Source of the DNA: a virus
Lineage: Duplodnaviria > Caudoviricetes
DNA: 64,000 nucleotides
Reading direction: 5' to 3' (one strand)
IMG/VR virus record: IMGVR_UViG_2695421015_000001
Span: 32,001-96,000 of that record
In this document: positions 6,471-32,298 of the stretch, piece by piece
Layout of the letters: every line of letters begins with the position of its first letter
How positions within the stretch are numbered: the first letter of the stretch is position 1
Notes under the pieces: generated by a model
What the model was told of the DNA's origin: nothing
Database searches by the model: none
What the model saw: the letters and a program-made list of their open reading frames with translations, nothing else
Program-made: the position numbers and the translations under genes

Positions 6471-6592
6471 AGATTTGGTCTCCGTGTTTGTGATAATGAG
6501 TCGCTGCTCCGATTGATGGACGCTGGGATGGTCTCCTTGCAGCCAACCTCTCGGGCACGAGGCGGGAGCTGCGAACTCCCGCCTCACCTTTT

Positions 6593-6787
6593 TTAGCGCC
6601 GCAGTCTCTCCGTGATAGAGAGTATGGCGTTGTAGTCGTCGGCGTCCGGCGGCTTCGAATCGTTGTAGCGCGGAGGCGTGCCTCCGAGCGCCCGATCGTA
6701 GGCGTCGATCTCTGCGGTCACCTCGCCGGCGATCTGCTCGATCTGTAACAGATGCCGGATACGGAAAAAGGCAAGCAACAGTTTCAT
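6593..6787 (-). CDS. hypothetical protein
   Basis: 64 aa, coupled to the upstream gene, GGAGAC RBS. Confidence 0.55.
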   Translation of the reverse strand: MKLLLAFFRIRHLLQIEQIAGEVTAEIDAYDRALGGTPPRYNDSKPPDADDYNAILSITERLRR

Positions 6788-7194
6788 CGCGCTGTCTCCT
6801 CCGTCAGCATGGCGGACAGTGTGCGGAAGCGATCAGCGGCTTTGTTCTGATCCTCGACGAAGGCCAGGAGCGCCGTTGACAGATGGTAGCGCAGGGTCTT
6901 GGTTGACGCTTCGCTGCGGTCCATCAACAGGTCACCGGGCTTGCCGTCCTCCGAGGTGACGGCCATCTGGAGGAAGTCCGCCAACACCGTTAGCCGATAG
7001 AAATTCAACGCGGCGTTTAGGATGTCTGCCTTCTGGCCGTCCGCCAGATCGGGTCTCTTGCACAGGCCTGATACTGCGATATTGACGGCGAGGGTTGCGC
7101 GCGTGGCGGCCGACATCTTCGGTACCCTCTCCTTCAAGAGGTTGATGAAGGCGTCGGCGTCGAGCTTGGAGAAGTCTGCAGTTGCGTGTTCCAT
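6784..7194 (-). CDS. hypothetical protein
   Basis: ATG follows the conserved leader. Confidence 0.75.
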   Translation of the reverse strand: MEHATADFSKLDADAFINLLKERVPKMSAATRATLAVNIAVSGLCKRPDLADGQKADILNAALNFYRLTVLADFLQMAVTSEDGKPGDLLMDRSEASTKTLRYHLSTALLAFVEDQNKAADRFRTLSAMLTEETAR

Positions 7195-7249
7195 AGTCGT
7201 GGTCTCCTTGTGAATGCCGGCTGCGAACCGGCGGTCGAGGTGGGTGGAT

Positions 7250-7483
7250 TTATCGGTCGTCGCGATGCACGATGACGACCTTCTCCGATTTGGGCGCCGT
7301 GCAGGCCCAGATCAGGGCGGCGATCCAGCCGAGGATCGTCCATCCCAAGAGCAGGTTGGTCATGAAGATCGCGAGCGTCTGACGATGCCGGCGGATCAGG
7401 CTGATGGATGTCGGTATGAAGTAGAGCGACAGGATGACGAGGAGCCCGATCAGAGCGGCTCCGTTATCAGAGGTATTGTTCAT
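7250..7483 (-). CDS. imm: superinfection immunity protein (T4 Imm-like)
   Basis: LYFIPT...RRH...IF..NLLLGWTILGWIAALIWA is the Imm family signature. Confidence 0.85.
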   Translation of the reverse strand: MNNTSDNGAALIGLLVILSLYFIPTSISLIRRHRQTLAIFMTNLLLGWTILGWIAALIWACTAPKSEKVVIVHRDDR

Positions 7484-7535
7484 TGGTGGTCTCCTTGTGA
7501 ATGCCGGCTGCGAACCGGCGGGTGGGTGGCTTGGT

Positions 7536-7775
7536 TTAGATGAAAAGTCGGCGCCGCACTGGCGGCAGCGATATCGCGATCGCCTTTTCGATGGCGCCCA
7601 AGGCTTCGTCGCCCGGGGAGCCGTTCGGGTGCAGTAGCCGGGCGCAACGGATCAGGTACGCCGCGGCATGTTCCTCGCAACAAAAGCGAGGGATCTCAGA
7701 CCTGCGAATGGTGACCGAGATGACGGTATCGGTGCTTTCGCAATTGCCCCAATGGCACATGAACTCACGGGGCAT
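7536..7775 (-). CDS. small Cys/His protein
   Basis: CHWGNC...FCCEEH. Confidence 0.55.
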   Translation of the reverse strand: MPREFMCHWGNCESTDTVISVTIRRSEIPRFCCEEHAAAYLIRCARLLHPNGSPGDEALGAIEKAIAISLPPVRRRLFI

Positions 7776-7941
7776 ACGGTACCTCCTCGACCTTCACGAC
7801 CTTCATCGCGACGACCTCGGCCTTGTCCATTAGGCAGTCGCCGCAACTGACGGCAGGGTCGGGGACGCGATCCTCGCGGACGACGTCCGATAACTTGTTG
7901 CAGGATGGGCAGACGACGTGGAAGAGATATCGCCGCTTCAT
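7765..7941 (-). CDS. small zinc-ribbon protein
   Basis: Start after the leader; CPSC...CGDC. Confidence 0.65.
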   Translation of the reverse strand: MKRRYLFHVVCPSCNKLSDVVREDRVPDPAVSCGDCLMDKAEVVAMKVVKVEEVPYAP

Positions 7942-8123
7942 TGTTCGGTCTCCTTGGATTGGCGCCGCTGCGAACGGCGGTTGAGTTGTTCTTCGGCCCA
8001 CGCGAGCGCTCCTTCGTAGAACTCGCGGGGGAGGTCGCCGTCACTGTCGCCGACAGCGCCGGCGAGTTTGGCGTGCAGGGCCTCGATGATGGCTTCGAGG
8101 CGGCGGGTGCTGAGTGAAGCCAT
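7938..8123 (-). CDS. hypothetical protein; its 3' end runs through the leader
   Basis: 61 aa ORF coupled to neighbours. Confidence 0.5.
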   Translation of the reverse strand: MASLSTRRLEAIIEALHAKLAGAVGDSDGDLPREFYEGALAWAEEQLNRRSQRRQSKETEQ

Positions 8124-8296
8124 CAGACGATCACCTTCCTCACGCGGAAGGTTGCCTTTGGCGAGCGCTTGCGCATGAGCGCAGCGCCAGCCTCCGCCTC
8201 GTCCTCATCGCGATAGGCCTGCATGACGTACCATCTATCGAGGTCGGGCGGCTGTATCTCAACCGCCCATGGCCTCCGCTTGCTGAGGTTTGCCAT
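8123..8296 (-). CDS. hypothetical protein (MANLSK...)
   Basis: Coupled start with GGAGG RBS. Confidence 0.55.
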   Translation of the reverse strand: MANLSKRRPWAVEIQPPDLDRWYVMQAYRDEDEAEAGAALMRKRSPKATFRVRKVIV

Positions 8297-8545: not shown

Positions 8546-8839
8546 TCACGACGCACAGATCGCGCCGATCATCCAGTGGGTTTTGTCGCCGCGCTTGAAC
8601 CGCACGGCGCGTGCCTCCTCCCACTTGCGGCAGTTCGCGTCGAGATAGTCGTTGGCCGATTTCGCGTCGGCGAACTCGTCGCCGGCGACGAACATCAGGC
8701 CGGAGGCCATGCCGAAGCCGCCGGAGTAGGAGTGCCCGTTCTCGTAACGGTCTTGGTCCTGGGCCTCCGCGAACTTTTGCTTGACCGCCTCGCGGTCCAG
8801 TTTGCCGTCAAGCGTCATCGTCTCAAAATTTGCACCCAT
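8546..8839 (-). CDS. hypothetical protein
   Basis: ATG after the leader; MGANFETMTLDG... Confidence 0.75.
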   Translation of the reverse strand: MGANFETMTLDGKLDREAVKQKFAEAQDQDRYENGHSYSGGFGMASGLMFVAGDEFADAKSANDYLDANCRKWEEARAVRFKRGDKTHWMIGAICAS

Positions 8840-9047
8840 GGTGCTGGTCTCCTTGATTGGGGTTGATGCCCTCTGCGAAAGGGCGGTTAGCGATCCGGGT
8901 TCTCTAGCTCGTTGGTGAGGCTTCCGAGCCAAACAGGAGTTGCTGCAGCAACGACGACCGCATCCACGATGCGGGCATCGAAGTGTAGGCAGATTTTTGC
9001 GGCGGCCACGCCGATTAGAAAGCGGGCCACCGGCAATACCATCGCTA

Positions 9048-9460: not shown

Positions 9461-10342
9461 TCAGTCCATCTCGAACTGTGGCACCTGCACGGCCGGAGCC
9501 GCCGGCGCGAGTGACTCTCCGAGGTCGATCTCCGGAGCGTCGGTTACCGGAACCCCATCCGAGTCCCGGATTATGTCGTTCTCATACGCGGGCACCTCCT
9601 CCATCTCGATCGGAGCCAGGTCAAGCATGCGACCCTCGTGGATGGGGGCAGCGACCTCCGTCGCCTCGTCGAGGTCAAGGAAGCTGGTCCGGGCGGCTGT
9701 GATCTTCTGGATCGACAACAGGTCGATCTCGGCCGCGCTTTGCTCGCCGGCCTTTTTGATCGTGGTAGCCGCGGAGCGAGCAACCTTGATCGCATCCTTG
9801 ACGCGCTCGGCCATTTCAGGGGAGAGCATGGAGCCAAGCTCGCGCGCCCGGTCGGCCGCGTCCCGGATCGCCTTGGGGTCGAACTTGCTGATGCCAGCTT
9901 CCATCGCGGCGAGCAGCTCGCGGACCTCGGCGTTGATGGCTCGCACCGCCTTGACGTCGTCGCTTTCGATCTTGCCGGCAACAACCTCGAAGCTGAGGCG
10001 AGTGGTCGCGGCTCGACGATTGAACTCGTCGGCGAGCGCGCGAGCCTCGTCCACCGATTGGTTCAATGCCGCATAGTTGTCTTCCGGGCAGAGCAGACCG
10101 AACGAGATCGGCGCGCAGGTTTTGGTGACGGTGGCGCGCATCTTGCTCCTCAGTTGCGTCGCCTCCTTCAACTCTGCGGCGTTAGCGATCACACGCTCGG
10201 TCTCCCATCTGCCTTTCAGGCTGCCGTCAGCGTCTTCGGTGTCGGCCTCGAGGATCGTCTTGGAATACTTGACGTTGCCGGTGATACCGGTGCGCATAAT
10301 CACAACGTAACCCGGGCGGATGGTGGTGGTTCGGATCGTCAT
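9461..10342 (-). CDS. hypothetical helical protein, probable partner of the AAA ATPase
   Basis: 293 aa ORF after the leader. Confidence 0.8.
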   Translation of the reverse strand: MTIRTTTIRPGYVVIMRTGITGNVKYSKTILEADTEDADGSLKGRWETERVIANAAELKEATQLRSKMRATVTKTCAPISFGLLCPEDNYAALNQSVDEARALADEFNRRAATTRLSFEVVAGKIESDDVKAVRAINAEVRELLAAMEAGISKFDPKAIRDAADRARELGSMLSPEMAERVKDAIKVARSAATTIKKAGEQSAAEIDLLSIQKITAARTSFLDLDEATEVAAPIHEGRMLDLAPIEMEEVPAYENDIIRDSDGVPVTDAPEIDLGESLAPAAPAVQVPQFEMD

Positions 10343-10429
10343 AGTGGTGGTCTCCTTGGTGAATGCGGCCTGCGAAGCCGCGTTGGGGTGGTGGTCGGTA
10401 TTGCCGCGGCGGTTATCCGCCGCGGGTAG

Positions 10430-10609: not shown

Positions 10610-12634
10610 TCAGATATCGAGGACGCGGCCGCCGGCAGCGGCGGCACGCTTGGGCATCGCCACGACCGTTTTTTCTTCGGCCGAGGCGTTACGCACTCCC
10701 TTTTCCTTGACCCAGTCGTTCAGCTTGGAGAGCTTCTCGGCTTGGCTTCTGGACAGGGGTGTCACCTTGGTGGCGACGCGGACCAGGTCGTCAACGGTGA
10801 TCGCCCGCGCACCGTCCGCGAATGCCTTGAACAGCGCATCCGGCACGATGGCGGCGATCTCCGATCCGGTGAACTGGTCGGTCGCCGCGATCACGTCCGC
10901 GATCCCGTTGGGGTCGAGGTCTGTGATACTGCGGCCATGCGCTTTCAGCGCCGCCCGCAACACGCCCAGACGCTCCACCTTGTTTGGCAGGCCAACGAAC
11001 CAGAACTCGTCGAACCTACCCTTGCGGAGTAGCTCCGGCGGCAGGCTCGACACATCGTTCGCGGTGGCGATCACGAACGACTCGCCCTTGCGCTCCTGCA
11101 TCCACTGCAGGAACGAGCCGAGTTGATCGGAGGAGACACCGCCATCCGCACCGCCTTGGGTGGCGCCGGCAAGCGCCTTCTCGATCTCGTCGATCAGCAC
11201 CACGCAGCGACCGATCGCCTCGATGGTGCTTTGGGCCTTGCGCATGTTGGCCTCAGACTCGCCGACGAACTTGCCTTTGAGCGCGCCCAAATCCCACTTG
11301 AGCAGGGGGATGCCGCCGTAGGCGGTGGCGATCGCCTTCGAGGTCAGCGTCTTGCCGCAGCCGGGGATGCCAACGAGGAAGCACCCCTTCGGCGGCGGCA
11401 GGCCGTAGTCGCGCGCCTTCGGGCTGTAGGCGAGGTTTCTCTCCATCAGCCACTCTTTCAGGTTCTCCAGACCGCCGACGTCGTCGAGGCCGCCAGCGAG
11501 CGGGTCGAGCCACTCCAAGTTACCTTCGCGGGCGATCACGCGCTTTTTCTCCTTGGAGATCGTCGCCGGGTCGATCTTGCGCGTCTGCACCAGCGATTTG
11601 GCGAAGCAGGCCTGCGCCTCTTCACCGGAGAGGCCGATAGCGGCGTCGACGGCAGAATCGCGCACGCCGTTGGGCGCCGCTAACGCGCGGATCGGTTTGG
11701 TCTTGTCCGGTATCGGCTTGCCGTCCGCATCGAAGATCTTCTTCTTGGTATCGGGGTCGATCTTGTAATCGAACTCCCGCAACGAATTGATCGAAGCGTC
11801 GAGCAGGGCCGCGATCTCGTCGCGGTCCGGCATCGGCCATTCCATGACGGTGGCATGGTTTGCCAGTTCCGGCGGAACGTCGCGGGACGGCGACAGCACG
11901 ATCAGAACCTGAGCACCCTCGGGCAGCATCCCGGGCAACGAGCGCGCCAGATTACGCACCTGACGGCAGGTCACCATGCCGGGAGGTCCGATCAGCCACG
12001 GCGGCAGATCGCGCATGATCCACGCGCCGCGGTCGGCTTGGTCCGCGGCGCGCTTGGCAATCAGGGCGAGCGCAACGTCGATGCTTTTCCCGTTGTCCTC
12101 GCCAAGGTTAGCGAGGTCGCCGTTCAGTTCGGTGAACCCCTGACCGCAATCCCACATGCGCGGGACGAAGCCAGCCGCAGCGGCCGCCTGCACCAGATAA
12201 CTCTCGGCTCTGCCTTCCTCGCGCGTCACGATCCATAGGAGCGGATTACGGGCGCGGGCGAGGGCGGCAATGTCGGCCGCCAGTTCCTCGCTCTTGGTCT
12301 TGGGCCGCGTCGTTGCGGTCGCCTTCACTTCGGCTTTGGTCTCGACCTTCGGTGCCGCCTTCTCCTTTTTCTTGGCGGGCGGCGCTGCCGCGATCTCGAT
12401 CGGCATGTCGCCATCGACCGTCGCCATCACCTTGTCGTACGCCTCGACGGCTCCCGTCAGGTCGAACGTATCCGGCGTTGCGCGCTCCAGCATGGGCAGA
12501 CTGCCCCACGGTATGGGTCCGAACTGCGACATGAACCCGTCGTCGCCGACAGACTTGACCTCGACGAGTTGGACATTGCTGCCCATACGCATTTCCAGCC
12601 GGTCGCCCGGCTTAATATCTTCACGGTTTAACAT
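10610..12634 (-). CDS. AAA+ ATPase (Ycf46-like)
   Basis: Walker A GIPGCGKT, KFVGESE, Walker B LIDEIEK, TAN, PPELLRKGRFDE. Confidence 0.9.
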   Translation of the reverse strand: MLNREDIKPGDRLEMRMGSNVQLVEVKSVGDDGFMSQFGPIPWGSLPMLERATPDTFDLTGAVEAYDKVMATVDGDMPIEIAAAPPAKKKEKAAPKVETKAEVKATATTRPKTKSEELAADIAALARARNPLLWIVTREEGRAESYLVQAAAAAGFVPRMWDCGQGFTELNGDLANLGEDNGKSIDVALALIAKRAADQADRGAWIMRDLPPWLIGPPGMVTCRQVRNLARSLPGMLPEGAQVLIVLSPSRDVPPELANHATVMEWPMPDRDEIAALLDASINSLREFDYKIDPDTKKKIFDADGKPIPDKTKPIRALAAPNGVRDSAVDAAIGLSGEEAQACFAKSLVQTRKIDPATISKEKKRVIAREGNLEWLDPLAGGLDDVGGLENLKEWLMERNLAYSPKARDYGLPPPKGCFLVGIPGCGKTLTSKAIATAYGGIPLLKWDLGALKGKFVGESEANMRKAQSTIEAIGRCVVLIDEIEKALAGATQGGADGGVSSDQLGSFLQWMQERKGESFVIATANDVSSLPPELLRKGRFDEFWFVGLPNKVERLGVLRAALKAHGRSITDLDPNGIADVIAATDQFTGSEIAAIVPDALFKAFADGARAITVDDLVRVATKVTPLSRSQAEKLSKLNDWVKEKGVRNASAEEKTVVAMPKRAAAAGGRVLDI

Positions 12635-12682
12635 TGATGGTCTCCTTGTAGAGGGCGCTGCGAACGCCCGGTTGGGATTGTA

Positions 12683-14082: not shown

Positions 14083-14308
14083 TGGACACCTCACATTCTG
14101 AATCGAGGATCGTGCAGCCATCCGGAGACACGCCGGGGTCGAACAGCATCCGCAGCGCGGCGCTGACATCGCCGTCGGGGACGATGTTGCTGGCGTCCTC
14201 GTCAGTTTCGTTTGGGTTTTCGTCGAGGTAACGCTGTCTGGCGGCGCCAATCAGCGCGACCTCGTTGTCGATCGTGACGAAGATCGACACTTCGGCAGTG
14301 GTCGTCAT
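14075..14308 (-). CDS. acidic hypothetical protein
   Basis: ATG after the leader. Confidence 0.7.
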   Translation of the reverse strand: MTTTAEVSIFVTIDNEVALIGAARQRYLDENPNETDEDASNIVPDGDVSAALRMLFDPGVSPDGCTILDSECEVSNG

Positions 14309-14352
14309 GTTTGGTCTCCTTGATGTTGGGCCTGCGAAGCCCGGTTGGTGGA

Positions 14353-15219
14353 TTAGTTGGTCTCGGGGACGTACTCGCCCTTCGCTTCGGCGATCAGGCA
14401 TCCGATCTCGTTGAAGAGATCGGTTTGCCATTCGGCGCTCCTGTCCTTGAAAAGAGTCTCTGCTTCCATCTTGGCGTGGATGCCATCTAGCGTCGAAAGC
14501 ATCTTGCCGTTCAGTTTTTGCAGACGGGCGATCTCGGCGGCATTGCGGACGATGTTGGCGGCCTCATTGACGAGAGCGATGGACTCTCCCGACAACATCA
14601 CGCCGAGCGAGCGAGCTTTCTCGGCAGCGGCCTGCACGTCCGGCTCCTTCGGCTTGTCGAACAAAGGCGCGCCGCACTGGTAGCAGTACCCGGTTTCCGT
14701 CGGTTGGTCCCACGCGAGACCCTTGGCACGGCATGACGCGCAGCACCCTTGACCGTCTCCATCCTTGATCGTGAGCGGCGGGACCTTGTCGCTCTCGAAG
14801 CGAGCAAGGTCGTCGATGACCTCGCGAAGGTATTCGCCGCTCGACTCGCGCCCGCGCAGCTCTTTGAGATTGAGCGTCGGCTCGTATCCCTGTGCAGAGG
14901 CGGAGCACTCCTCGACGTGGGTGCCTGGCTTCCAAATCTGGATGCCGGAGTCCCACTCGTATCCGGCGTCGAAGTGCAGCCAGAACGGCAGGTCGTTCTC
15001 CACACAGAAGTCGATAACTGTGGCGGGGTTGCCGCAGTTGACCTGACCTTGCAGGATCAGGCTCTCGTTCTTGTTGGCGACGTCGCGAACCTGATTTTCA
15101 TCATCAGGGCCGATGGCCATTTCGGAAAAGTCATCCTCGATCGTCGCGAGTAGATCGTCGATTTTGCTGGCTGGTATCGGGCCGCCGATATGCATCGTGG
15201 TCCATGTCATCTCAGTCAT
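14353..15219 (-). CDS. hypothetical protein with an internal zinc ribbon
   Basis: ATG after the leader; CASC...CYQCG. Confidence 0.75.
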   Translation of the reverse strand: MTEMTWTTMHIGGPIPASKIDDLLATIEDDFSEMAIGPDDENQVRDVANKNESLILQGQVNCGNPATVIDFCVENDLPFWLHFDAGYEWDSGIQIWKPGTHVEECSASAQGYEPTLNLKELRGRESSGEYLREVIDDLARFESDKVPPLTIKDGDGQGCCASCRAKGLAWDQPTETGYCYQCGAPLFDKPKEPDVQAAAEKARSLGVMLSGESIALVNEAANIVRNAAEIARLQKLNGKMLSTLDGIHAKMEAETLFKDRSAEWQTDLFNEIGCLIAEAKGEYVPETN

Positions 15220-15253
15220 GATGGTCTCCTTGTGATGGGCCTGCGAAGCCCGG

Positions 15254-16612
15254 TTAGCGTTTGTAGATCGTGAGGACGGTGGTGTTGATGTTCGTCCCGC
15301 TCTCGCTGAACGAGCCGACGGGGAGGTCGTCCCATCGGCCGCCATACGACGCGCTCTCGCCGAGATCATCGAGCAGCCCGTGGTCGTAGCGAGCCGTCGC
15401 CGGCAGGATCGCGATCAGCTTTCCTTCCGGTTTCAAAAACTCATAGGCGTGACGGACGTGCTTGGCGTAGTGCTTGCCGTAGAACGGTGGGTTCATCACC
15501 ACCATATCGAAGTCGCCCGTCGGCACCGTCTCAAGGAAGTTCTTGAGCAGGACGGTGTGGCCCTTGGCCTTGCACTCGGCCGCACGCTTCGGATCGACCT
15601 CGATGCCGTAGGGGTTGGCGCCGGCATCGCGCAGCGCATCCATGAACCGCCCGCAGCCGCAGGACGGTTCGAGCACGCGCTGGCCCTCAAGCCGGTAGTC
15701 TCCGATCTTGTAAAGGATCTCCTTCACCACCTTCACCGGCGTCGGGTAGTATTGCAGGTCCTTAGAGACCGCCGTGCTCTGTTTTTTCTTCGGCTCGTCG
15801 TCGGCGGTGTCAGGCAGCACGTCGCCGTAGAACTCGGCGAGCGCCATGTTGATATCGCGCAACTCCTTCGGCTCGAAGAACAGGTGGCCGTTGCCATTGC
15901 CGAAGGTGCGCAGCCGGACGCCGCGCCCGACGATCGGGAACGGCTTGTCCCACGTCCGGTCGGCGGCCAGCTCGCTGTCCACGAGGAGGGCGTCCTCGTT
16001 CTTGCAGAGCGCTTCGATCTCGCGATGATCGATCAGCGGCTTGCCTTGGTAGACGGCAAGCGCGTTGAGGACGCTCTTGAGTTTGTCGCGGCCGTAGGAG
16101 CCGTAGCTGCCGACGTAGCTGAGGATGACGCGCTTCGGCAGGCCCTTGACGCCGACCTTGACCTTGTCGTGGCTTTTGTAGGCGTCGTCCAGGCCGCAGA
16201 ACACTTCGGCGAGGCCGCGCAGGATGTTGCCGCGCGGATCGAGCAAGAACTTGCCGAAGGTGCCGCGGATGTTGTCGAGCGTGAACGGCGGCGGGGAGGC
16301 GATGGCTTGCTCCCATAGCCGCTTGTCGGTCGGGCTGGCGAGGCGCGCGATATCGAGCCCGCCGTAGACGTGCATCCACGCCGACTTGAGCAGTCCAGTC
16401 TCGAGGTCGCGCGCATAGACGTGACCGGTATCGATGCTGACATCGCCGAACTGACCGGCTACCGTCACTGCCATCTTGAGGTCGTTGCCGGCTTTTTCAA
16501 AAGCCTTCACCGCATCGGGGATGGCGGCCTTCTTGGCGTCGTATTCCGCAACCACGTCGGCGAGGCTGCGCTGTAGGGCGATCTCACCCTCGATTTTGAC
16601 ATGAGCGTTCAT
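15254..16612 (-). CDS. DNA amino-methyltransferase (N6A/N4C) with DUF4942-like N-terminal region
   Basis: QYYPTP, motif I LEPSCGCG, motif IV MNPPF, FSESGT; R.F.NGN.HL.F. Confidence 0.85.
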   Translation of the reverse strand: MNAHVKIEGEIALQRSLADVVAEYDAKKAAIPDAVKAFEKAGNDLKMAVTVAGQFGDVSIDTGHVYARDLETGLLKSAWMHVYGGLDIARLASPTDKRLWEQAIASPPPFTLDNIRGTFGKFLLDPRGNILRGLAEVFCGLDDAYKSHDKVKVGVKGLPKRVILSYVGSYGSYGRDKLKSVLNALAVYQGKPLIDHREIEALCKNEDALLVDSELAADRTWDKPFPIVGRGVRLRTFGNGNGHLFFEPKELRDINMALAEFYGDVLPDTADDEPKKKQSTAVSKDLQYYPTPVKVVKEILYKIGDYRLEGQRVLEPSCGCGRFMDALRDAGANPYGIEVDPKRAAECKAKGHTVLLKNFLETVPTGDFDMVVMNPPFYGKHYAKHVRHAYEFLKPEGKLIAILPATARYDHGLLDDLGESASYGGRWDDLPVGSFSESGTNINTTVLTIYKR

Positions 16613-16692
16613 TGAGTTGGTCTCCTTGTGTGTGAACGTGGTGTGGGCGGCGCCTGCGAAGCGCCGCCTTGCTGGCTGGCCTGCGTGGGGAG

Positions 16693-22199: not shown

Positions 22200-22249
22200 G
22201 ATTTGGTCTCCTTGATTGAAACGGCTCTGCGAAAGCCGGGTGGGTTGGA

Positions 22250-22585: not shown

Positions 22586-22919
22586 GGTTGGTCTCCTTGG
22601 TTGAGGTCTGCGAAGGCTTGTTGTGATATTTTAGCTCTCGGTGCCGCATGCAGATGCGACACTCCTTGGTTCCGTCGGGGCGGTGATAGGTATTGGCCTT
22701 GGTGCGCGGGTGGCCGTTGCGGCACTGCTTCTGCGCAGGCGTCTCCCGCTCCCGCTTGGCGTGATATCGAAGCGCGCAGCAGAGGCGACAGACGTTCGAG
22801 CCTCGCGCGTCGATAAAGCTGGATTTGGCGTTTCGCGGGTGTCCACGCTTGCAGGCCGCGTCCAGCCTCGGGGCGCCGCGCGGGCGCCCCGTCGGTTTGT
22901 ATTTGCCGCTCCTACCCAT
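22554..22919 (-). CDS. protein with two CxxGH...CxxC zinc modules
   Basis: CKRGH...CRLC and CRNGH...CRIC; reads through a decayed leader. Confidence 0.6.
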   Translation of the reverse strand: MGRSGKYKPTGRPRGAPRLDAACKRGHPRNAKSSFIDARGSNVCRLCCALRYHAKRERETPAQKQCRNGHPRTKANTYHRPDGTKECRICMRHRELKYHNKPSQTSTKETNHVTPDRQLHH

Positions 22920-23109
22920 TGCCTGCCATCATCCAGCCCGCGACGGCGAAGCTGAGGATGACGGTCGCGCCGACCGCCAGTTCGATATGCGATGGGAATT
23001 TCGGGGCGACGTACTCGGCGACGGGGTGGCCATAGTCGTCGATGGCAGCGGCCGCGACAGCGAGCGCGCAGGCCAGCAGGATCGCGACAACGGTGATGAA
23101 GTGCAGCAT
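22912..23109 (-). CDS. small membrane protein
   Basis: Two hydrophobic segments; after the leader. Confidence 0.65.
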   Translation of the reverse strand: MLHFITVVAILLACALAVAAAAIDDYGHPVAEYVAPKFPSHIELAVGATVILSFAVAGWMMAGNG

Positions 23110-23161
23110 GGGTGTGGTCTCCTTGGTTGAAATCCGTCTGCGAAACGGGCGAGGGTGAATA

Positions 23162-23329: not shown

Positions 23330-23596
23330 TCACAACTCCCACTCGCCGCCTTCGTCACCTTCGTCGATGACCTTCGGGCACTTCTGGCCTTTGCGCTTCG
23401 GCTTGAAGTTGGCGCACAGGCCGCCAAAGCCGGGCTGGTAGTCAGCATCGGGGCCCAATGCGATCTTCAGGTGGTCGGCCAGCGCGCGGGCCAGCTCGTT
23501 CGCCAGCACCTCGAACTGGTCCACGTAGCGCTGCCTGCCGGGCAGCTTGCTGTTCGTTGCTGCGTCCAGCATGTTGTTGATGTCGAGTACCTTCAT
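23330..23596 (-). CDS. hypothetical protein
   Basis: MKVLDINNML... after the leader. Confidence 0.7.
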   Translation of the reverse strand: MKVLDINNMLDAATNSKLPGRQRYVDQFEVLANELARALADHLKIALGPDADYQPGFGGLCANFKPKRKGQKCPKVIDEGDEGGEWEL

Positions 23597-23637
23597 GATT
23601 GGTCTCCTTGATTGAGCCGTCTGCGAAACGGCGGTGG

Positions 23638-23879: not shown

Positions 23880-24053
23880 TCACTCCGCTGCTTGCTGCAT
23901 CGTGGGCGCGCGGGCGGCAATGATCCGCTCGGCGTCCTTTCGCTGCTGCCATGAAAGCGAAAGGCCCGCGTGGTAGCGGGCCACGATCTCGTCGTTGGTG
24001 AACTCGATCAGGTCGAGGTCTGCGAAGTGCGCGTTGTATCTTGCGCTTTGCAT
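23880..24053 (-). CDS. 57 aa hypothetical protein
   Basis: MQSARYNAHF... after the leader. Confidence 0.6.
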   Translation of the reverse strand: MQSARYNAHFADLDLIEFTNDEIVARYHAGLSLSWQQRKDAERIIAARAPTMQQAAE

Positions 24054-24128
24054 CGATGGTCTCCTTGGTTGGATGGAAACGAGGACGCGCTCGCTGCGAA
24101 CGAGCGCGCCCCGTCGGTGGCGGGTTAA

Positions 24129-25588: not shown

Positions 25589-25821
25589 TGGCCCCTCCCT
25601 TCGCGATTGAGGCGGGCGACCTCGCGGCGGTAAACGGAGATGCCGGACTCGGGCATCGACAGCTTCGCGCCGCTCGGCGTCGGCAGGTATCCGACATAGC
25701 CGCGCATGTTGAACCAAAGCTGGTCCACGATCTTGCCGTTGAGGATCACGTCGTAGCGCTTCGTGGTCTCCAGCATCTGGCAACCGCGGCGCGTCTCTTT
25801 CAGTTCAAGCTTGAATGGCAT
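25585..25821 (-). CDS. hypothetical protein
   Basis: After the leader. Confidence 0.7.
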   Translation of the reverse strand: MPFKLELKETRRGCQMLETTKRYDVILNGKIVDQLWFNMRGYVGYLPTPSGAKLSMPESGISVYRREVARLNREGRGQ

Positions 25822-25895
25822 GGTTGGTCTCCTTGGTTTGAAAACGAAAGAGCGCGCTCGCTGCGAACGGCGCGCCCGTCGGGGATGGGTTGGTT

Positions 25896-26198
25896 TCAGC
25901 TATGGGTGTAGCCGTCGGGCTCGATGCCGAGCCACATGCCCCATCGGTGGATCATGATGCAGCCGTAGCCGCCGTGCACGGTCTTGCGGAAATTCCGGTA
26001 CTGGATCGACGGCACCTTGACGACGCGATGGGGATTGCGGACCGCGAAGTCAGCGAACTTTTCGGCGTCGTAAGGGTGGCCCTCGAAGTGGCGACGATCT
26101 TGCTCCTGCAGCCGGATCGTCGGTGTCAGCCAGCTTGGGAAGTCGCGGAGGAAGATTCGGAACAGCGCCTCGCGCTGCGCTCGGGTGGTGACGATCAT
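25896..26198 (-). CDS. hypothetical protein
   Basis: After the leader; C-terminal GMWLGIEPDGYTHS. Confidence 0.75.
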   Translation of the reverse strand: MIVTTRAQREALFRIFLRDFPSWLTPTIRLQEQDRRHFEGHPYDAEKFADFAVRNPHRVVKVPSIQYRNFRKTVHGGYGCIMIHRWGMWLGIEPDGYTHS

Positions 26199-26240
26199 GG
26201 TGGTGGTCTCCTTGAATGCCGTCTGCGAAACGGCGGTGGG

Positions 26241-26602: not shown

Positions 26603-27085
26603 TCAAAAGCCGCTGGCGAGTTGATGGGCTTCGGCGTCGGTCTTGCCGTCAAGTTTGTGCTTGGCGTAGGAGCGTTGCCATTTGACCCAGCTGCGGAGTT
26701 CGGCCGCCTCCGCCTCCTTGCAAGCAGACGCGAACACGAACAGCTCGTCGTCACGGCGCGGCTCCCACGCGCTTTGCGCGGCGAACATGCGGACCTTGGA
26801 GATCGCATCGCTCATGGTCATTGGCCTGGAGCCGAGCCCGTTCATCCACAGCGTCTTGCCGTGATGCTCGGTCGCCTTGCCGGGCTCGATGATCTGGTAG
26901 CACCACTCGCCGACCGGGCTCGCGGCCACGATCAGGGTGAGGCCCCATCGGAACTCGATGTGCGGCGCCTGCGCATTGCACAGGAAGTCGATCTTGTTCG
27001 AGAGGTCGAGTTTGGCCTCGTTCTTGTTCGGGCCTTCGCCGACGACGCAGCCGCGGCTTGTTGTGACGGTCTTGGGTTTACGCAT
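26603..27085 (-). CDS. hypothetical protein
   Basis: After the leader. Confidence 0.75.
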   Translation of the reverse strand: MRKPKTVTTSRGCVVGEGPNKNEAKLDLSNKIDFLCNAQAPHIEFRWGLTLIVAASPVGEWCYQIIEPGKATEHHGKTLWMNGLGSRPMTMSDAISKVRMFAAQSAWEPRRDDELFVFASACKEAEAAELRSWVKWQRSYAKHKLDGKTDAEAHQLASGF

Positions 27086-27128
27086 GGTGGTCTCCTTGTG
27101 ATGCGCTCGCTGCGAACGAGCGCGGGTT

Positions 27129-28012: not shown

Positions 28013-28412
28013 TCGAGATGCGGTCGCGGATCGATCCGGCGTCGGCGAGGCCGCGCTCATGCAAATCGGTCAGCGTCTTGAGCGCGTCGGCGCGCGCCCG
28101 GGTGACGTAGACGGTCAGGGTCCGCTTGACGTGCGGCCCGAGTCCGACGGTCACGACCTGGCCCTCGGCGTTCACGCCATAGGTCCGCGCCTGCGCTCCC
28201 GTCCGGTGGCGGCTGCCGGGGTTGCGAATGTGCAGCGTGGTGACGACCCATCCGAAGCGCTCGGTCTCGTACAGGGTCAGGGTGTGCAGCACGTCGAACG
28301 GCTGCGGCTTGCGCCAGTCGTATTTCTTGGGGTGCTTCGGATATGCGGTGTCGGTCTCCTTGAGGCCGAAGGGCAGGGCGGGCTTGGTCGGCTTGCCGGT
28401 GGGGAACTTCAT
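27954..28412 (-). CDS. hypothetical protein
   Basis: After the leader. Confidence 0.75.
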   Translation of the reverse strand: MKFPTGKPTKPALPFGLKETDTAYPKHPKKYDWRKPQPFDVLHTLTLYETERFGWVVTTLHIRNPGSRHRTGAQARTYGVNAEGQVVTVGLGPHVKRTLTVYVTRARADALKTLTDLHERGLADAGSIRDRISSRRAQGAMRRSSFGFGLGF

Positions 28413-28567
28413 GGGTGGTCTCCTTGCGATGAATGTTGAAATGGAAGGCGCGCCCCGCTGCGAACGGGGCGCGCGCTGTCAGTCTCTCCGTGTGCCCAAC
28501 GTCACCATTGGGCATTCGCTCAGCGTAGTTCTGAGGCGCGGTCTCCTGTAGAGAGGCTGAAAGGTTG

Positions 28568-29019: not shown

Positions 29020-29181
29020 TCACTGCACGTTGACGCGAGGATGATCGGCGAGGCCGCGCCGCGTCAGGAACTCCTGATCGACAACGTAGCGGGTGTAGGG
29101 CTGCGGGCGATCTTCGACGTATTCGCGGAAGCGGCGGAGTTCATCTTGGCGGATCAGCTTGAGGATTTGCTTGCGTGACAT
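29020..29181 (-). CDS. 53 aa protein (MSRKQILKLIR...)
   Basis: After the leader; N-terminus shared with 30575-30643. Confidence 0.65.
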   Translation of the reverse strand: MSRKQILKLIRQDELRRFREYVEDRPQPYTRYVVDQEFLTRRGLADHPRVNVQ

Positions 29182-29248
29182 GGTGGTCTCCTTTGGTTGG
29201 GGCCGCTGCGAACGGCCGGTGAAAAACAGGTGATGGGTTTGGTCGGGA

Positions 29249-29617: not shown

Positions 29618-29920
29618 TCAGTCGCGTACCGGCCAGCCGCGCTCGGCGGCGAGCTTCTTGGCTTGGTCGATGACATCCATCGAGGGCAGGCGTCCTTCGA
29701 GGCATACGCAGAGCGCGACGCCGGCAGCCGGCGTATGCAGGTGGCCGCGCTCTTTCGTGACGGCGACGGGCCGTGTGTCGGCGATGCCGACAACCTTCTC
29801 CTTCTCGATCACGAGAATGTCCCCGGTCTCGACCGGGTACTCGCCGTCGAAGGCGAAGTGAATGCCGGTCTGACAGGCATCGTAGGCGTCGCCGCTGGTG
29901 GGGAATGTGTGGGTGCTCAT
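29618..29920 (-). CDS. hypothetical protein
   Basis: MSTHTFPTSGDAYDACQ... after the leader. Confidence 0.7.
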   Translation of the reverse strand: MSTHTFPTSGDAYDACQTGIHFAFDGEYPVETGDILVIEKEKVVGIADTRPVAVTKERGHLHTPAAGVALCVCLEGRLPSMDVIDQAKKLAAERGWPVRD

Positions 29921-29970
29921 GGTGACGGTCTCCTTGGGTTGACGTTCTGCGAAAACGATGGGTGAGGGGA

Positions 29971-30347: not shown

Positions 30348-30563
30348 TCAGTCGATGGTCTTGAAGCCGTGGCGGGCGGCCGCCGTCACGTCGCCGGTCT
30401 TGGCCATGCCGGACAGGTGCAGGCCGAACACCGCAGTGAAGCGGCCGTCGCGATTGCAGACGACCAGCGGCATCATCTGGTCGAGGCCCGTGGTCGCGAG
30501 TGCCTTCATCAGGTTCGCTTCGGTGGCGTAGCTCTTGGCGTTGTCGATATCGAGTATGCTCAT
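30348..30563 (-). CDS. hypothetical protein
   Basis: MSILDIDNAKSYATE... Confidence 0.65.
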   Translation of the reverse strand: MSILDIDNAKSYATEANLMKALATTGLDQMMPLVVCNRDGRFTAVFGLHLSGMAKTGDVTAAARHGFKTID

Positions 30564-30574
30564 GGCGGTCACTC

Positions 30575-30643
30575 TCACTTGCCGTTGCGGTAGCGCTGGA
30601 GTTCGAGCTTGCGGATCAGGGCGATGATTTGCTTGCGTGACAT
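30575..30643 (-). CDS. 22 aa basic peptide (MSRKQIIALIRKLELQRYRNGK)
   Basis: Starts directly after a full leader. Confidence 0.5.
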   Translation of the reverse strand: MSRKQIIALIRKLELQRYRNGK

Positions 30644-30726
30644 GGTGTGGTCTCCTTGATGGTTGGTGGTGGAATGAAAAGGCCCCGCTGCGAACGGGGC
30701 CTGTCGGGGATGGGATGGGGATTGGA

Positions 30727-31092
30727 TCAGCCGCGGCCGCGACCGCACTTCATCTTGCGCTTGCCGCCCTTGGCCTTGCCCTTTGTCGAGCGATAGCCCT
30801 TGCCGCTGTCCATCTCGCTCGCCCAGATCGCGTCATCGACCCGCACATGCTGCCTTTCGATGGCGTCAAACACGCGATAGCAGGCGTCAGAGAACTCGAG
30901 GTCCAGGTCGCGCAGCCTATCGAGTGCGGCGTCCCGGGCGTCGATATCCTTGTAAGTCTCGCAGGGCATCGCCTTGATGGCGCGGGCGGCGGCGAGGGAA
31001 GCGACCTCGCCGGCCTTCGTGGCTGCGCGGAAGGCGGCGTTCATCTTGGTTTCGGCTTTCTTGGCGGTGGCAATGATGGTCTGGACGTTCAT
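30727..31092 (-). CDS. hypothetical protein with a basic tail
   Basis: After the leader. Confidence 0.75.
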   Translation of the reverse strand: MNVQTIIATAKKAETKMNAAFRAATKAGEVASLAAARAIKAMPCETYKDIDARDAALDRLRDLDLEFSDACYRVFDAIERQHVRVDDAIWASEMDSGKGYRSTKGKAKGGKRKMKCGRGRG

Positions 31093-31167
31093 GGGTGGTC
31101 TCCTTGAGTTGCAGGCATGAAAAAGGCCCGCTGCGAATGGGGCCGGTGATGGTCGGTGGTGGTGGGG

Positions 31168-31452
31168 TCAGCGGCGCAGGCTGGCGGGTCCGCCTTTGCC
31201 CTTGGGCGCCTCGCGCCAAACGTCGGGGTACTTGGCCATGATCGCTTTCTTGTTCTGGTAGAAGCCCTCGCAGGCGACGCGAAAGAACTCGACGCCGTCG
31301 CGGCAGAAGATCACGAAGGCGGTGTCGGGGATGGACCGGAACGATCCGGCGGTGCGGTAGCAGGCGTCCTCGCCAGCCATCGGGATGCTGTCCTTCGAGG
31401 TGACGAGTCTGCCGCGGTTCCAGATTTGGCAGATGGCAGTGAACTTGCTCAT
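31168..31452 (-). CDS. hypothetical protein
   Basis: CAAGGAGACCACC-ATG. Confidence 0.7.
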   Translation of the reverse strand: MSKFTAICQIWNRGRLVTSKDSIPMAGEDACYRTAGSFRSIPDTAFVIFCRDGVEFFRVACEGFYQNKKAIMAKYPDVWREAPKGKGGPASLRR

Positions 31453-31500
31453 GGTGGTCTCCTTGTGTGAGGTAGGGTGGAAGATCAGGGTGATGGTGGA

Positions 31501-31704
31501 TCAGCAGAGCGCGGAAGCAACGCAGTGCGCGTTTTCCCAGACGTTGCGGCAATCGGCGAGGCGGAGTTGATCCGCGATCACCTTGCGGATGTGCGTCTTG
31601 CTGTGCGTCTTGGGGCAGCACTTTTTGTAGAAGTTGTTTTTGAGCAGCGCCTGTTCGACGTTATCGATGCGGCGCTTGCTGATGGCGGTGGTCTTGGTAG
31701 CCAT
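31501..31704 (-). CDS. hypothetical basic protein, first gene of the array
   Basis: CAAGGAGACCACC-ATG. Confidence 0.7.
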   Translation of the reverse strand: MATKTTAISKRRIDNVEQALLKNNFYKKCCPKTHSKTHIRKVIADQLRLADCRNVWENAHCVASALC

Positions 31705-32298
31705 GGTGGTCTCCTTGGTTTGGGTTGCTTAGATCGGAGCGTCGCTATGCGGCGCTCCGAGCTAAGCCCGCGCCCATGCTGCGACATGGGCGGGGTTAGC
31801 TGGCCGCGCGGCTTAATGGAGCCGCGCGATCTCAGTGCATCTCTCTTCCTGTTCGGTACTGCGGCCCGGTATTCGGCAATCCTGCGCGGCTACTACGGTC
31901 ACGATGGACATTCGCCGGCGGCGTCTATGGCGCGCTCTTGGATGTTAGCCTATTGGCGCGGCCCGCCTTGCTAGAGCGGCGCGTCAAAACCTTATCGGCA
32001 TTCGCGAGGGGAAAAGAGGCAAACAACATAGCCCTTGAACCATTTGCTTTGACGCCGCGCGATTGCGCGGGGCGGAAGAGTTGGCGGGATATGCCTTGGG
32101 TTATGAGAGGATAGGAGCGCGGGAGATACTGGAGTCGCATTGTTGACTAAGCGATGAGTCGCTATGCAGCTAATGGGACCGTCGGCAGGGTTCCTTACCG
32201 GGCTTTCGCTTAGCCCCTCCGACAACAAAATTGGACAGCGCGCGCAATGCGCTGTTGCGACCACTTTTCGGCCGCGTCCTTTATCCTTTCTACTTGTC

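What the first reader, a model, noticed from the sequence alone, without database searches (positions are those of the whole stretch)
6530..31717. 25 kb array of gene units, each headed by a co-varying hairpin with an invariant UUCGCAG loop plus CAAGGAGACC RBS
Seen: about 29 minus-strand copies of stem-TTCGCAG-stem, followed 5-60 nt later by CAAGGAGACC(N3-8)ATG. Stems differ in sequence and length (4-11 bp) but stay paired, e.g. GCCGG/CCGGC (7221), GCCCT/AGGGC (8873), GCGGC/GCCGC (10370), GGGCG/CGCCC (12658), GAGGCGGGAG/CTCCCGCCTC (6569). The loop does not change. Several non-Watson-Crick pairs are G-U only when read as mRNA (3292, 24094, 25861), which points to function at the RNA level. One copy is kept inside a coding 3' end (18575, PAFAAR*). 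I saw no copies in the structural block. Inference: a phage regulon in which one factor recognises the loop. Options are a boxB/nut-like antitermination site, a Cas6/Csy4-like endoribonuclease site that cuts one long transcript into monocistronic mRNAs, or a translation or stability element. The repeats may also act as recombination joints for gene cassettes. I do not recognise it as a described motif.
Basis: partly seen in the sequence, partly recalled or inferred. Interest (0 to 1): 0.92.

Follow-up and report, generated by a model that had tools for sequence, protein, structure and literature searches.

The report
Phage hairpin-plus-RBS adaptors, candidate antisense RNA
A large prophage puts the same small RNA adaptor, a hairpin with an unchanging loop plus an unchanging ribosome-site box, in front of about thirty early genes, and it also holds one gene-less copy that, read on the other strand, looks like a small RNA able to pair with all of them.

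Summary
Inside 6530-31717, 29 minus-strand TTCGCAG copies are followed by the CAAGGAGACC box (26 with a stem of 4 or more pairs). The combined pattern occurs 33 times in the 9.09 Mb genome, always inside one ~110 kb prophage. Six further (pro)viral contigs carry the same loop and box. They belong to two lineages that share almost no proteins. Stems covary strongly: 91.3% paired against 44.4% when shuffled. Orthologous genes keep the hairpin with different stems. Rfam and my six text searches gave no description.

Best reading (0.45): a two-box RNA adaptor read by one trans-acting antisense RNA. All six gene-less adaptor copies in the five fully fetched elements show, on the opposite strand, an invariant anti-RBS 14-mer, then a hairpin whose loop complements the adaptor loop, then a T-rich tail of varying strength. 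That resembles a C4/CI-type small RNA. Its expression and strand are not shown, and a loop-binding protein is not excluded. Two of eight indel edges between close relatives fall on adaptors, so adaptors also serve as recombination joints.

This scan noted the same motif, with the same antisense reading, in another genome (e1-5343872). That note changed my reading, and I tested it here only in part.

The parts
3284..3333 (+). adaptor copy on the plus strand: 8-bp stem, TTCGCAG loop at 3292, CAAGGAGACC, GTG start
6526..6587 (-). gene-less adaptor copy: 12-bp stem, loop at 6569, CAAGGAGACCATCC with no start codon after it
6498..6596 (+). candidate antisense small RNA. It holds the anti-RBS 14-mer (6526-6539), a 19-nt spacer, a hairpin at 6559-6585 with loop CTGCGAA, and a T6 tail. 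The 5' end is not defined.
7192..7232 (-). adaptor, 5-bp stem, loop 7221, ATG 7194
   Evidence: 36-nt identical with the 7508 copy
7481..7519 (-). adaptor, 5-bp stem, loop 7508
7939..7979 (-). adaptor, 5-bp stem, loop 7968, heads a 58-aa zinc-ribbon-like gene shared with G403
8837..8884 (-). adaptor, 5-bp stem, loop 8873
10340..10381 (-). adaptor, 5-bp stem, loop 10370; orthologous sites in G401/G402 have a different closing pair
12632..12669 (-). adaptor, 5-bp stem, loop 12658, heads the AAA ATPase gene; the orthologous sites have 8-bp stems of other sequence
14306..14342 (-). adaptor, 4-bp stem, loop 14332
15217..15251 (-). adaptor, 4-bp stem, loop 15241
16610..16668 (-). adaptor, 8-bp stem, loop 16654, heads the DUF4942/methyltransferase gene
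17086..17142 (-). adaptor, 9-bp stem, loop 17127
17428..17499 (-). adaptor, 12-bp stem, loop 17481
18537..18585 (-). adaptor, 4-bp stem, loop 18575, overlaps the last codons of gene 18567-20012
20010..20102 (-). two hairpins in tandem (loops 20087 with a 9-bp stem, 20038 with a 6-bp stem) before one RBS box
21034..21074 (-). adaptor, 5-bp stem, loop 21063
22197..22238 (-). adaptor, 5-bp stem, loop 22227
22583..22614 (-). degenerate copy: loop 22608 and RBS box present, no stem
23107..23148 (-). adaptor, 4-bp stem, loop 23138
23594..23632 (-). adaptor, 5-bp stem, loop 23621
24051..24112 (-). adaptor, 12-bp stem, loop 24094, U-rich after the stem
25819..25877 (-). adaptor, about 10-bp stem with a bulged A, loop 25861, followed by TCTTTCGTTTTC
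26196..26234 (-). adaptor, 5-bp stem, loop 26223
27083..27123 (-). adaptor, 7-bp stem, loop 27110
28410..28474 (-). adaptor, 10-bp stem, loop 28458; terminator-like
29179..29217 (-). adaptor, 5-bp stem, loop 29206, box AAAGGAGACC
29918..29957 (-). adaptor, 4-bp stem, loop 29947
30641..30702 (-). adaptor, 8-bp stem, loop 30688, T-run; terminator-like
31090..31144 (-). adaptor with an A.C mismatch at the closing pair then 5 bp, loop 31131, T5 run
31720..32470 (-). about 750-nt untranslated stretch upstream of the first array gene (31704), with a candidate promoter near 32445-32470 found by eye only
   Evidence: the scan tool found no consensus promoter

Best explanation
Each independently started early or accessory cistron of this ~110 kb prophage is headed by a two-box RNA adaptor. 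Box 1 is the 7-nt UUCGCAG, displayed at the tip of a hairpin whose stem may have any sequence. Box 2 is the extended ribosome site C-AAGGAG-ACC, which lies 5-7 nt after short stems. I propose that one trans-acting antisense RNA reads both boxes. That RNA is the complementary strand of the single gene-less adaptor copy (plus strand, about 6498-6596). Its first hairpin carries GGAUGGUCUCCUUG, the complement of box 2. Its terminator hairpin has the loop CUGCGAA, the complement of box 1. Pairing would begin with a loop-loop kiss and then cover the Shine-Dalgarno site. That would shut off translation of about 30 cistrons together, and possibly change their decay or termination, much as C4 RNA of P1/P7 uses two short segments. 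Shown here: the adaptors, their covariation, their invariance, the gene-less copies in all five fully fetched elements, and the complementarity. Inferred: that the plus strand is transcribed, that the two RNAs pair, and that the effect is repression. As a side effect the repeated adaptors serve as joints where cassettes are gained or lost.
For: The stem is under selection for pairing: 91.3% of cells pair against 44.4 +/- 2.3 when shuffled, and the covariation score is 1.003 against 0.219 (0 of 500 shuffles reach it; slid controls 0.08-0.23). 89 of 99 copies have stems of 4 or more pairs, against a shuffle mean of 7.7 and maximum of 16. Orthologous genes (SSB, YqaJ-like exonuclease, AAA ATPase, methyltransferase, a 293-aa gene) keep the hairpin with different, fully paired stems.

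Both boxes are invariant beyond what ribosome binding needs. Among hairpins with 5 or more pairs and a 7-nt loop, 73 loops are TTCGCAG and 1 is TTCGCAT. C precedes AAGGAG in 88 of 89 copies and ACC follows it in 94 of 99. Neither flank pairs with the 16S 3' end.

Two phage lineages with almost no shared proteins use the same two boxes. A frozen RNA-RNA code with about 30 targets would explain this.

All five fully fetched elements hold gene-less copies with the invariant CAAGGAGACCATCC, six in all: G000, G401, G402 (two), G403, G404. One more stands on each of two partly fetched contigs, 2922401287_000005 and metagenome contig L313. Five of the 6 gene-less copies lack a start codon, against 1 of 93 ordinary copies. 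Three of 6 have 6 or more T in 8 nt after the stem on the opposite strand, against 0 of 93.

The plus-strand hairpin 6559-6585 with tail ACCTTTTTTA is the top terminator-like hit in 5000-24999. The five antisense stretches folded each form two hairpins, with z from -2.2 to -3.9. In the consensus fold, 12 of 18 pairs show changes on both sides.
Against: I have no expression data: no RNA run was listed. The scan tool found no sigma-70-type promoter on either strand in 5000-24999. A TGTGATAAT at 6489-6497 stands only in this phage and is not kept in the relatives. The RNA would then have to come from read-through of the convergent rightward operon or from an atypical promoter.

The tails in G403 and G404 are weak terminators (4-5 T in 8). 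Folding energy does not tell the strands apart: the antisense strand is the more stable at 3 sites, the two strands are within 1 kcal/mol at 2, and the sense strand is the more stable at this phage's own site. The complementarity itself is automatic for any reverse-read adaptor copy, so it is not independent evidence.

The gene-less copy has a sense-strand reading too. An ORF from ATC ends overlapping the next start in 3-4 of 6 sites.
Confidence: 0.45

Rival explanations
1. A sequence-specific RNA-binding protein, phage or host, binds the loop. Because the hairpin sits 5-7 nt from the Shine-Dalgarno site, the protein would block or recruit the 30S subunit, in the way of a RegA or MS2-coat type translational operator.
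For: Invariant loop on free stems. Tight spacing between hairpin and RBS: 5-7 nt in 40 of 65 short-stem copies. By contrast, the distance from the upstream stop codon to the hairpin is broad, 2-163 nt. The loop also occurs on hairpins without the 10-mer box, such as the 5' UTR of the exonuclease gene in three phages and a 16-bp hairpin in G402.
Against: No RNA-binding or RNase family among the 58 proteins of this prophage scanned in 7 Pfam/PHROGs calls. No protein is shared by all five elements at E below 0.01; the nearest, a ParA-like protein, is in four of five, missing from the 41%-complete G404. The ASCH domain is found only in G403 and G404. The host has no excess of such hairpins: 30 outside the prophage among about 1,400 TTCGCAG, as chance gives. 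A protein does not explain the conserved C and ACC flanks or the gene-less copies.
Confidence: 0.2
2. The hairpins punctuate a long polycistronic transcript. They would be cleavage sites for an endoribonuclease, or barriers to RNase E/J and 3' exonucleases, giving each cistron its own stability.
For: No consensus promoter inside the 26 kb array, so long transcripts are likely. Hairpins stand at nearly every intergenic gap of 35 nt or more: 20 of 30 exact plus 3 imperfect. Predicted stability runs from about -5.7 to -21 kcal/mol.
Against: A plain barrier needs no invariant loop. No nuclease candidate was found. The spacing is tied to the RBS, not to the upstream stop codon.
Confidence: 0.1
3. 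The hairpins are nut/boxB-like sites, or conditional terminators, that control read-through of the early operons.
For: Copies 30688 and 28458 are the two best minus-strand terminator-like sites in 25000-33200. Copies 31131 and 25861 also carry T-runs. One hairpin lies in the 5' UTR of the leftward operon, just downstream of the cI-like gene, in all three related phages.
Against: About two thirds of the copies have 4-7 bp stems and no U tract. There is no conserved boxA-like flank: the median exact match between copies is the 7-nt loop alone. There are 29 or more sites where a nut system needs 1-2 per operon. The first array gene (67 aa, basic) has no homologue in the relatives.
Confidence: 0.07
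4. The adaptors exist mainly as recombination joints for gene cassettes, like the PeSLs of T4-type phages, and have no common regulator.
For: G402 and its 88-100% identical relative 2922401287_000005 were compared in four stretches. One 446-bp cassette difference is bounded exactly by two adaptors, with a 35-nt overlap, and one 277-bp difference ends at a hairpin. Identical 36-nt leaders flank gene 7250-7483. The gene content of the arrays differs widely among related phages.
Against: The other six of the eight or so indel edges seen are not at adaptors. Homologous exchange needs sequence identity, not a covarying stem. Most copy pairs share only the 7-nt loop.
Confidence: 0.06
5. The hairpin mimics the anticodon arm of tRNA-Ala(CGC) and engages a tRNA-binding enzyme, or acts as a decoy for an anticodon nuclease.
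For: The host tRNA-Ala(CGC) anticodon loop is TTCGCAA, which matches 6 of 7 positions. The commonest stem length is 5 bp. The loop fits Y-U-NNN-R-N.
Against: I estimate about 0.06 as the chance of a 6-of-7 match to one of some 45 host loops. RNAfold closes the loop to a CGC triloop in 89 of 89 copies. The mimic idea does not explain the link to the RBS.
Confidence: 0.03

Closest known systems
C4 antisense RNA of phages P1/P7 (Rfam RF01695) and CI RNA of satellite P4
   Same: A small phage RNA with two short exposed segments that pair with two boxes in the target RNA, one of which covers the ribosome site. It works as an immunity or timing device. This description of C4/CI is recalled and taken from earlier scan notes; I read no paper on it.
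   Different: No match to RF01695 or to any Rfam family. The candidate RNA here lies on the opposite strand from its targets and is not cut from the same transcript. It would have about 30 targets rather than one operon. The upstream box is shown on a covarying hairpin. Expression is unproven.
[quoted passage not shown]
   Same: A strictly conserved 10-13 nt box that contains the Shine-Dalgarno site, a few bases before the start codons of non-structural genes. About half the copies have an upstream inverted repeat. Function unknown, thought to concern translation.
   Different: Different sequence, host and phage group. ESAS arms are conserved in sequence and the authors found little support for an RNA hairpin. 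Here the arms vary freely, covary, and only the loop is fixed.
PeSL cassettes of T4-type phages (PMC4122927, abstract read; PMC2839356, search listing only)
   Same: A short repeated stem-loop motif between accessory genes of variable regions, lying at indel edges between close relatives.
   Different: PeSLs join a terminator to an early promoter. No promoter fits between hairpin and RBS here (5-7 nt), and none was found by the scans.
T4 RegB and RegA control of early mRNAs (PMC3014915, passages read)
   Same: Many early cistrons share an extended Shine-Dalgarno context that a single phage factor reads in order to shut them off.
   Different: RegB and RegA are proteins, and their sites lack a hairpin with a fixed loop. 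No homologue was found among the proteins scanned.
Lambda N / boxB nut sites (recalled, no paper read)
   Same: A small GC stem of about 5 bp with a loop read by sequence, on early transcripts.
   Different: No boxA, tens of sites, and a fixed link to each RBS.

Membership tests
C4/CI-type phage antisense RNA (RF01695) | Match to the Rfam covariance model | tested here: not met
   The gathering scan of the whole window found only the tRNA. The E<=1 scan of 6000-33200, both strands, found only one chance-level hit to an unrelated family.
C4/CI-type phage antisense RNA (RF01695) | Small RNA with two segments complementary to two boxes of the target, one at the RBS | tested here: met
   The 14-mer with the anti-RBS and the CTGCGAA loop are complementary to the box and loop of all adaptors. 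This is complementarity in silico only, and it follows automatically for a reversed copy.
C4/CI-type phage antisense RNA (RF01695) | The RNA is made and acts in trans | not testable with these tools
   No RNA run was listed for this DNA.
Cluster K SAS/ESAS | 13-nt consensus GGGATAGGAGCCC at gene starts | tested here: not met
   The box here is CAAGGAGACC. The consensus is quoted from PMC3203893.
Cluster K SAS/ESAS | 17-bp inverted repeats with conserved sequence | tested here: not met
   57 distinct 5-nt arm pairs among 89 stems.
PeSL (T4-type) | Early promoter within the motif | tested here: not met
   0 promoter-like sites in 5000-24999 and in 25000-33200. Only 5-7 nt lie between stem and RBS.
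PeSL (T4-type) | Indel edges between close relatives lie at the motif | tested here: inconclusive
   2 of about 8 edges lie at adaptors. Only four stretches of one pair were compared.
Lambda-type nut site | Conserved boxA next to the hairpin | tested here: not met
   The median exact match between copies is 7 nt, the loop alone. The flanks are C/A-rich but not conserved.
Lambda-type nut site | One or two sites per operon and a conserved N-like protein | tested here: not met
   29 copies in one operon. The first array gene has no homologue in G401 or G402.
CRISPR repeat / Cas6 site | Conserved stem sequence and regular spacing | tested here: not met
   The stems vary. Spacing follows gene lengths. 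Cas genes were not searched for.

The most novel reading that the evidence does not exclude
A natural standardised expression system for phage accessory genes. Every plug-in cassette carries the same two-box RNA adaptor. A single ~100-nt antisense RNA, whose terminator loop kisses the adaptor loop and whose first hairpin covers the ribosome site, switches some thirty cistrons at once. The same adaptors let cassettes move between otherwise unrelated phages of one host genus. That would be the largest known regulon of a phage antisense RNA, and an RNA-level analogue of an integron.
Probability: 0.3. Interest if true: 0.85.

Novelty: new variant of a known kind. Interest (0 to 1): 0.72.

Why it matters
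If the antisense reading holds, one small RNA controls the translation of about thirty phage genes through a short universal tag. That extends the one-operon C4/CI model to a genome-wide regulon. It also explains why gene-start-associated repeats such as SAS, unexplained since 2011, can be so strictly conserved. The adaptor is short, about 35 nt, and portable. It marks the accessory, probably host-takeover or anti-defence, genes of these phages, and it appears to be a joint for cassette exchange.

Tried and rejected
RNA evidence: the look-up of sequencing runs listed no RNA holder, so expression could not be examined and read laying was not used.

Ribosomal RNA pairing: the real 16S gene has no CTGCGAA or TGCGAA.

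23S mimicry: one of the 30 host hairpins outside the prophage (genome 7219572) lies in 23S rRNA and looked like a 7-bp hairpin with the same loop. The Rfam LSU consensus pairs its CGCAGG with an upstream CCUGCG instead, so it is not a loop there. I dropped this lead.

Shared protein factor: all-against-all BLASTP and six-frame phmmer between the two lineages found only a ParA-like ATPase, part of a head protein, a sheath-like piece, an AAA piece and a 58-aa zinc-ribbon gene shared by G000 and G403 only. ASCH domains occur only in G403 and G404. Seven Pfam/PHROGs calls on 58 proteins of this prophage gave no RNase or RNA-binding family. The protein atlas gave nothing for the 131-aa basic protein at 5824-6219: best score 0.79, below the level that the tool calls a lead.

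Strand tests: counts of G.U against A.C were even. Antisense against sense folding energy did not separate the strands.

Recoding or termination role: the distance from stop codon to hairpin is broad.

SD sequestration: predicted pairings of the SD are weak and inconsistent.

Literature: six full-text searches gave no description of this motif. Of the 1,285 and 92 papers that hold the DNA or RNA word, I saw only the 15 and 12 listed titles and abstract starts.

I did not build a covariance model. Exact-pattern scans and a script for loop variants took its place, so copies with indels in the loop could have been missed.

Full report
WHAT IS THERE. The window lies in a single-contig 9.09 Mb genome of 61.4% G+C. 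It covers most of an integrated phage. Terminase, portal, head-tail adaptor and sheath-like genes read rightwards from about 46.7 kb. A primase/helicase stands at 404-2743. Just left of the window are a cI-like HTH gene and a leftward operon with a YqaJ-like exonuclease, SSB and an HNH-like gene. A 24-nt direct repeat stands at genome 3032793, inside a tRNA-Gln gene, and again at 3143379. The element is therefore about 110.6 kb, from window coordinate -14042 to 96568.

Between 31704 and 5824 the minus strand carries some 54 mostly small genes of unknown function. The ones with a family hit are an AAA ATPase, a DUF4942/methyltransferase and a peptidase-like PHROG. The scan tool found no sigma-70-type promoter on either strand in 5000-24999 or in 25000-33200. 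A 750-nt untranslated stretch with a promoter-like TTGCAC...TATATA, seen by eye only, precedes the first gene. The array is probably one long operon.

TTCGCAG occurs 37 times in the window against 13.8 +/- 3.7 expected. The 10-mer CAAGGAGACC with up to 1 mismatch occurs 45 times against 3.7 +/- 1.9. In 6530-31717, 29 minus-strand copies of the loop are followed by the box. Of these, 26 have 4-12 contiguous pairs, two are imperfect and one has lost its stem. In the whole genome the joined pattern occurs 33 times, all within the prophage, and the reversed control gives 0. Outside the prophage there are 30 TTCGCAG hairpins with 4 or more pairs among about 1,400 occurrences of the word, which is what chance gives.

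RELATIVES. Exact-pattern scans found the same loop and box in arrays on five IMG/VR contigs out of 2.9 million. Two are 136 kb and 112 kb proviruses, here G401 and G402. They are related to this phage at 33-87% protein identity. A third is a 105 kb provirus that is 88-100% identical to G402 over the aligned parts. The last two are fragments, G403 and G404. They are related to each other but share almost no proteins with the first group.

A named Bradyrhizobium scaffold and an alphaproteobacterial MAG contig also hold arrays. So do 7 of 30 metagenome contigs, each with 2 or more copies. Among 150 other genomes of the host genus, one has an array of 23 copies, the same provirus as G402. Nine others have a single match, one of them in an unpublished genome. 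Among 400 genomes of the family, none has more than 2.

STRUCTURE AND INVARIANCE. I took all 99 copies of TTCGCAG followed by AAGGAG within 70 nt in the five elements, whatever their stems. Stem positions 1-4 pair in 94-97 of 99, against 41-49 when shuffled. The count of structure pairs on a gap-free alignment gives 91.3% of cells paired against 44.4 +/- 2.3, and a covariation score of 1.003 against 0.219 +/- 0.024 (0 of 500 shuffles). Slid controls score 0.08-0.23. All five pairs show changes on both sides. There are 57 different 5-nt arm pairs among 89 stems. Most pairs of copies share nothing but the loop, the median exact match being 7 nt.

Orthologous genes in the three related phages keep a hairpin at the same place with different stems. 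The AAA ATPase gene, for example, has GGGCG/CGCCC, GCCGGGCG/CGCCCGGC and GGGGCCGC/GCGGCCCC. The loop does not drift: among hairpins of 5 or more pairs with a 7-nt loop before an AAGGAG, 73 are TTCGCAG, one is TTCGCAT and there is no other one-mismatch form. RNAfold closes the loop further, with U.G and U-A pairs and a CGC triloop, in 89 of 89 copies.

ANATOMY. In the array, 18 genes follow their neighbour by 10 nt or less. None of these has a hairpin and one has the 10-mer box. Of 30 genes with a gap of 35 nt or more, 20 have an exact-loop hairpin, 3 more an imperfect one, and 25 have the exact box. The adaptor therefore heads each independently initiated cistron or small coupled group.

For stems of 4-7 pairs, the distance from stem to AAGGAG is 5-7 nt in 40 of 65 copies. 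For stems of 8 or more pairs it is 5-51 nt and often U-rich. C precedes AAGGAG in 88 of 89 copies, ACC follows in 94 of 99, and the start codon comes 3-7 nt later. The distance from the upstream stop codon is broad, 2-163 nt. The hairpin is therefore placed relative to the ribosome site. Two long-stem copies (30688, 28458) are the best minus-strand terminator-like sites near the promoter end. Copies 31131 and 25861 carry T-runs too.

No described RNA family matches. I found no candidate protein, and the Tried and rejected section lists the searches. That two lineages without common proteins use the identical code argues against a lineage-specific protein.

I had already seen that all five fully fetched elements hold odd adaptor copies, six in all, G402 having two. 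Each has a long stem of 10-14 pairs, about 20 nt of spacer, then CAAGGAGACCATCC with no start codon. I took up that idea and tested it.

On the opposite strand the six sites align as follows: an invariant GGATGGTCTCCTTG, 19-25 nt of spacer, a hairpin with loop CTGCGAA, then a T-rich tail. Three of the 6 have 6 or more T in 8 nt, against 0 of 93 ordinary adaptors. Five of 6 lack a start codon, against 1 of 93. The site in this window, 6559-6585 followed by ACCTTTTTTA, is the top terminator-like hit on the plus strand. The five roughly 100-nt antisense stretches that I folded each form two hairpins with z-scores from -2.2 to -3.9. The 14-mer sits at the tip of the first hairpin. In the consensus fold, 12 of 18 pairs show changes on both sides. 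Further gene-less copies stand in the third provirus and in an independent metagenome contig whose stem differs again.

WHAT THIS EXPLAINS AND WHAT IT DOES NOT. An RNA complementary to both boxes explains four things. It explains why bases that do not pair with 16S rRNA (the C and the ACC) are fixed. It explains why the loop must sit on a hairpin of any sequence, since that gives a kissing start. It explains why nothing drifts, since about 30 targets and one regulator would have to change together. It explains why unrelated phages can share the code.

Several weaknesses remain. The complementarity is automatic for any reversed copy. No promoter was found. Folding energy does not separate the strands. 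The G403 and G404 tails are weak. There are no RNA data. The RNA might be the 3' end of read-through from the convergent rightward operon, which ends at 5604.

I put the antisense-RNA adaptor model at 0.45, a loop-binding protein at 0.2, processing or stability punctuation at 0.1, nut-like or terminator control at 0.07, recombination joints as the sole role at 0.06 and a tRNA-Ala anticodon-arm mimic at 0.03. The rest is unknown.

CASSETTE EXCHANGE. I compared G402 with its close relative over four stretches. One 446-bp cassette difference is bounded exactly by two adaptors, with a 35-nt overlap. One 277-bp difference ends at a hairpin. The other edges seen are elsewhere. In this window, 36-nt identical leaders flank gene 7250-7483. 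A joint role is thus real in some cases, but it does not explain the covarying stems.

COMPARISON WITH KNOWN SYSTEMS. In logic the closest is the C4/CI class of phage antisense RNAs. Membership fails on the Rfam model, and the layout differs: opposite strand, tens of targets, and a hairpin-borne upstream box. In appearance the closest are the SAS/ESAS repeats of Cluster K mycobacteriophages, whose function is still unknown according to the passages I read in PMC3203893 and PMC12699233. Those have conserved arms and no hairpin support. PeSLs (PMC4122927, abstract) share the cassette-joint aspect but include a promoter. T4 RegB and RegA (PMC3014915, passages) share the idea of a common tag on early mRNAs but are proteins.

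VERDICT. This is a real, strongly supported RNA motif family of Bradyrhizobium-type (pro)phages, and I found no description of it where I could search. It most likely forms a multi-target antisense-RNA regulon. Strand and expression remain to be shown.

Noticed in passing
window 25272-25380, 29546-29620, 30277-30350 (minus strand): Three array genes (starts 25271, 29545, 30276) have a second kind of leader in place of the TTCGCAG hairpin. It is a GC hairpin with a CAUG or CACG loop, followed by the shared CACGATGCACTTCCGCATC and then the same CAAGGAGACC box. An earlier first-reader note (e1-6205561) flagged it as a possible switch.
   Followed up: partly
window 6467-6529 (minus strand) and the matching sites in G401-G404: At the gene-less copies, an ORF read from the ATC just after the box runs 16-43 codons. 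Its stop overlaps the next gene's start (ATGA, GTGA, perhaps TTGA) in 3-4 of 6 sites. This is a sense-strand reading, a leader peptide with a non-AUG start, that competes with the antisense one.
   Followed up: partly
window 5824-6470 (minus strand): The last two array genes overlap by 16 nt. They encode an acidic 88-aa protein (net -10) and then a basic 131-aa protein (net +6), and both are kept in G401 and G402. The layout looks like a toxin-antitoxin pair. No family hit in Pfam, PHROGs or the atlas.
   Followed up: partly
window 32900-32990: Six or so direct repeats of TGGGACAT (iteron-like) lie between the untranslated leader of the array and the conserved 201-aa basic gene at 33021-33626.
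   Followed up: no
genome 3032741-3032816 and 3143379-3143402 (window about -14042 and 96545-96568): A 24-nt direct repeat, one copy inside tRNA-Gln(CTG), marks the probable ends of the ~110.6 kb element. The 472-aa gene beside the tRNA has no Pfam hit.
   Followed up: partly
window 38767-38841: A tRNA-Thr(UGU) gene is carried by the prophage.
   Followed up: no
window 9396-9460 (minus strand): The gene at 9048-9395 is preceded by a 10-bp hairpin capped by a C(UUCG)G tetraloop, not the 7-nt loop, and by a variant box AAGGAGAGACC.
   Followed up: no
window 27669-27953 (minus strand): A 285-nt gap before gene 27129-27668 is filled with repeats of GCCTGCCCC(GG) on the mRNA strand. I did not check that.
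   Followed up: no
G402 46219-46257 (minus strand of that record): A 16-bp hairpin with the same TTCGCAG loop and a short T tail stands in the late region of the relative G402, with no RBS box nearby. The loop is therefore not strictly tied to gene starts.
   Followed up: no
window 81922-82596 (right of the window, locus L158 17922-18596) and G403/G404: A ParA-like ATPase is shared by both lineages. ParB_N, DUF932 and ASCH genes are headed by adaptors in G403 and G404. This hints at plasmid-like maintenance functions.
   Followed up: no
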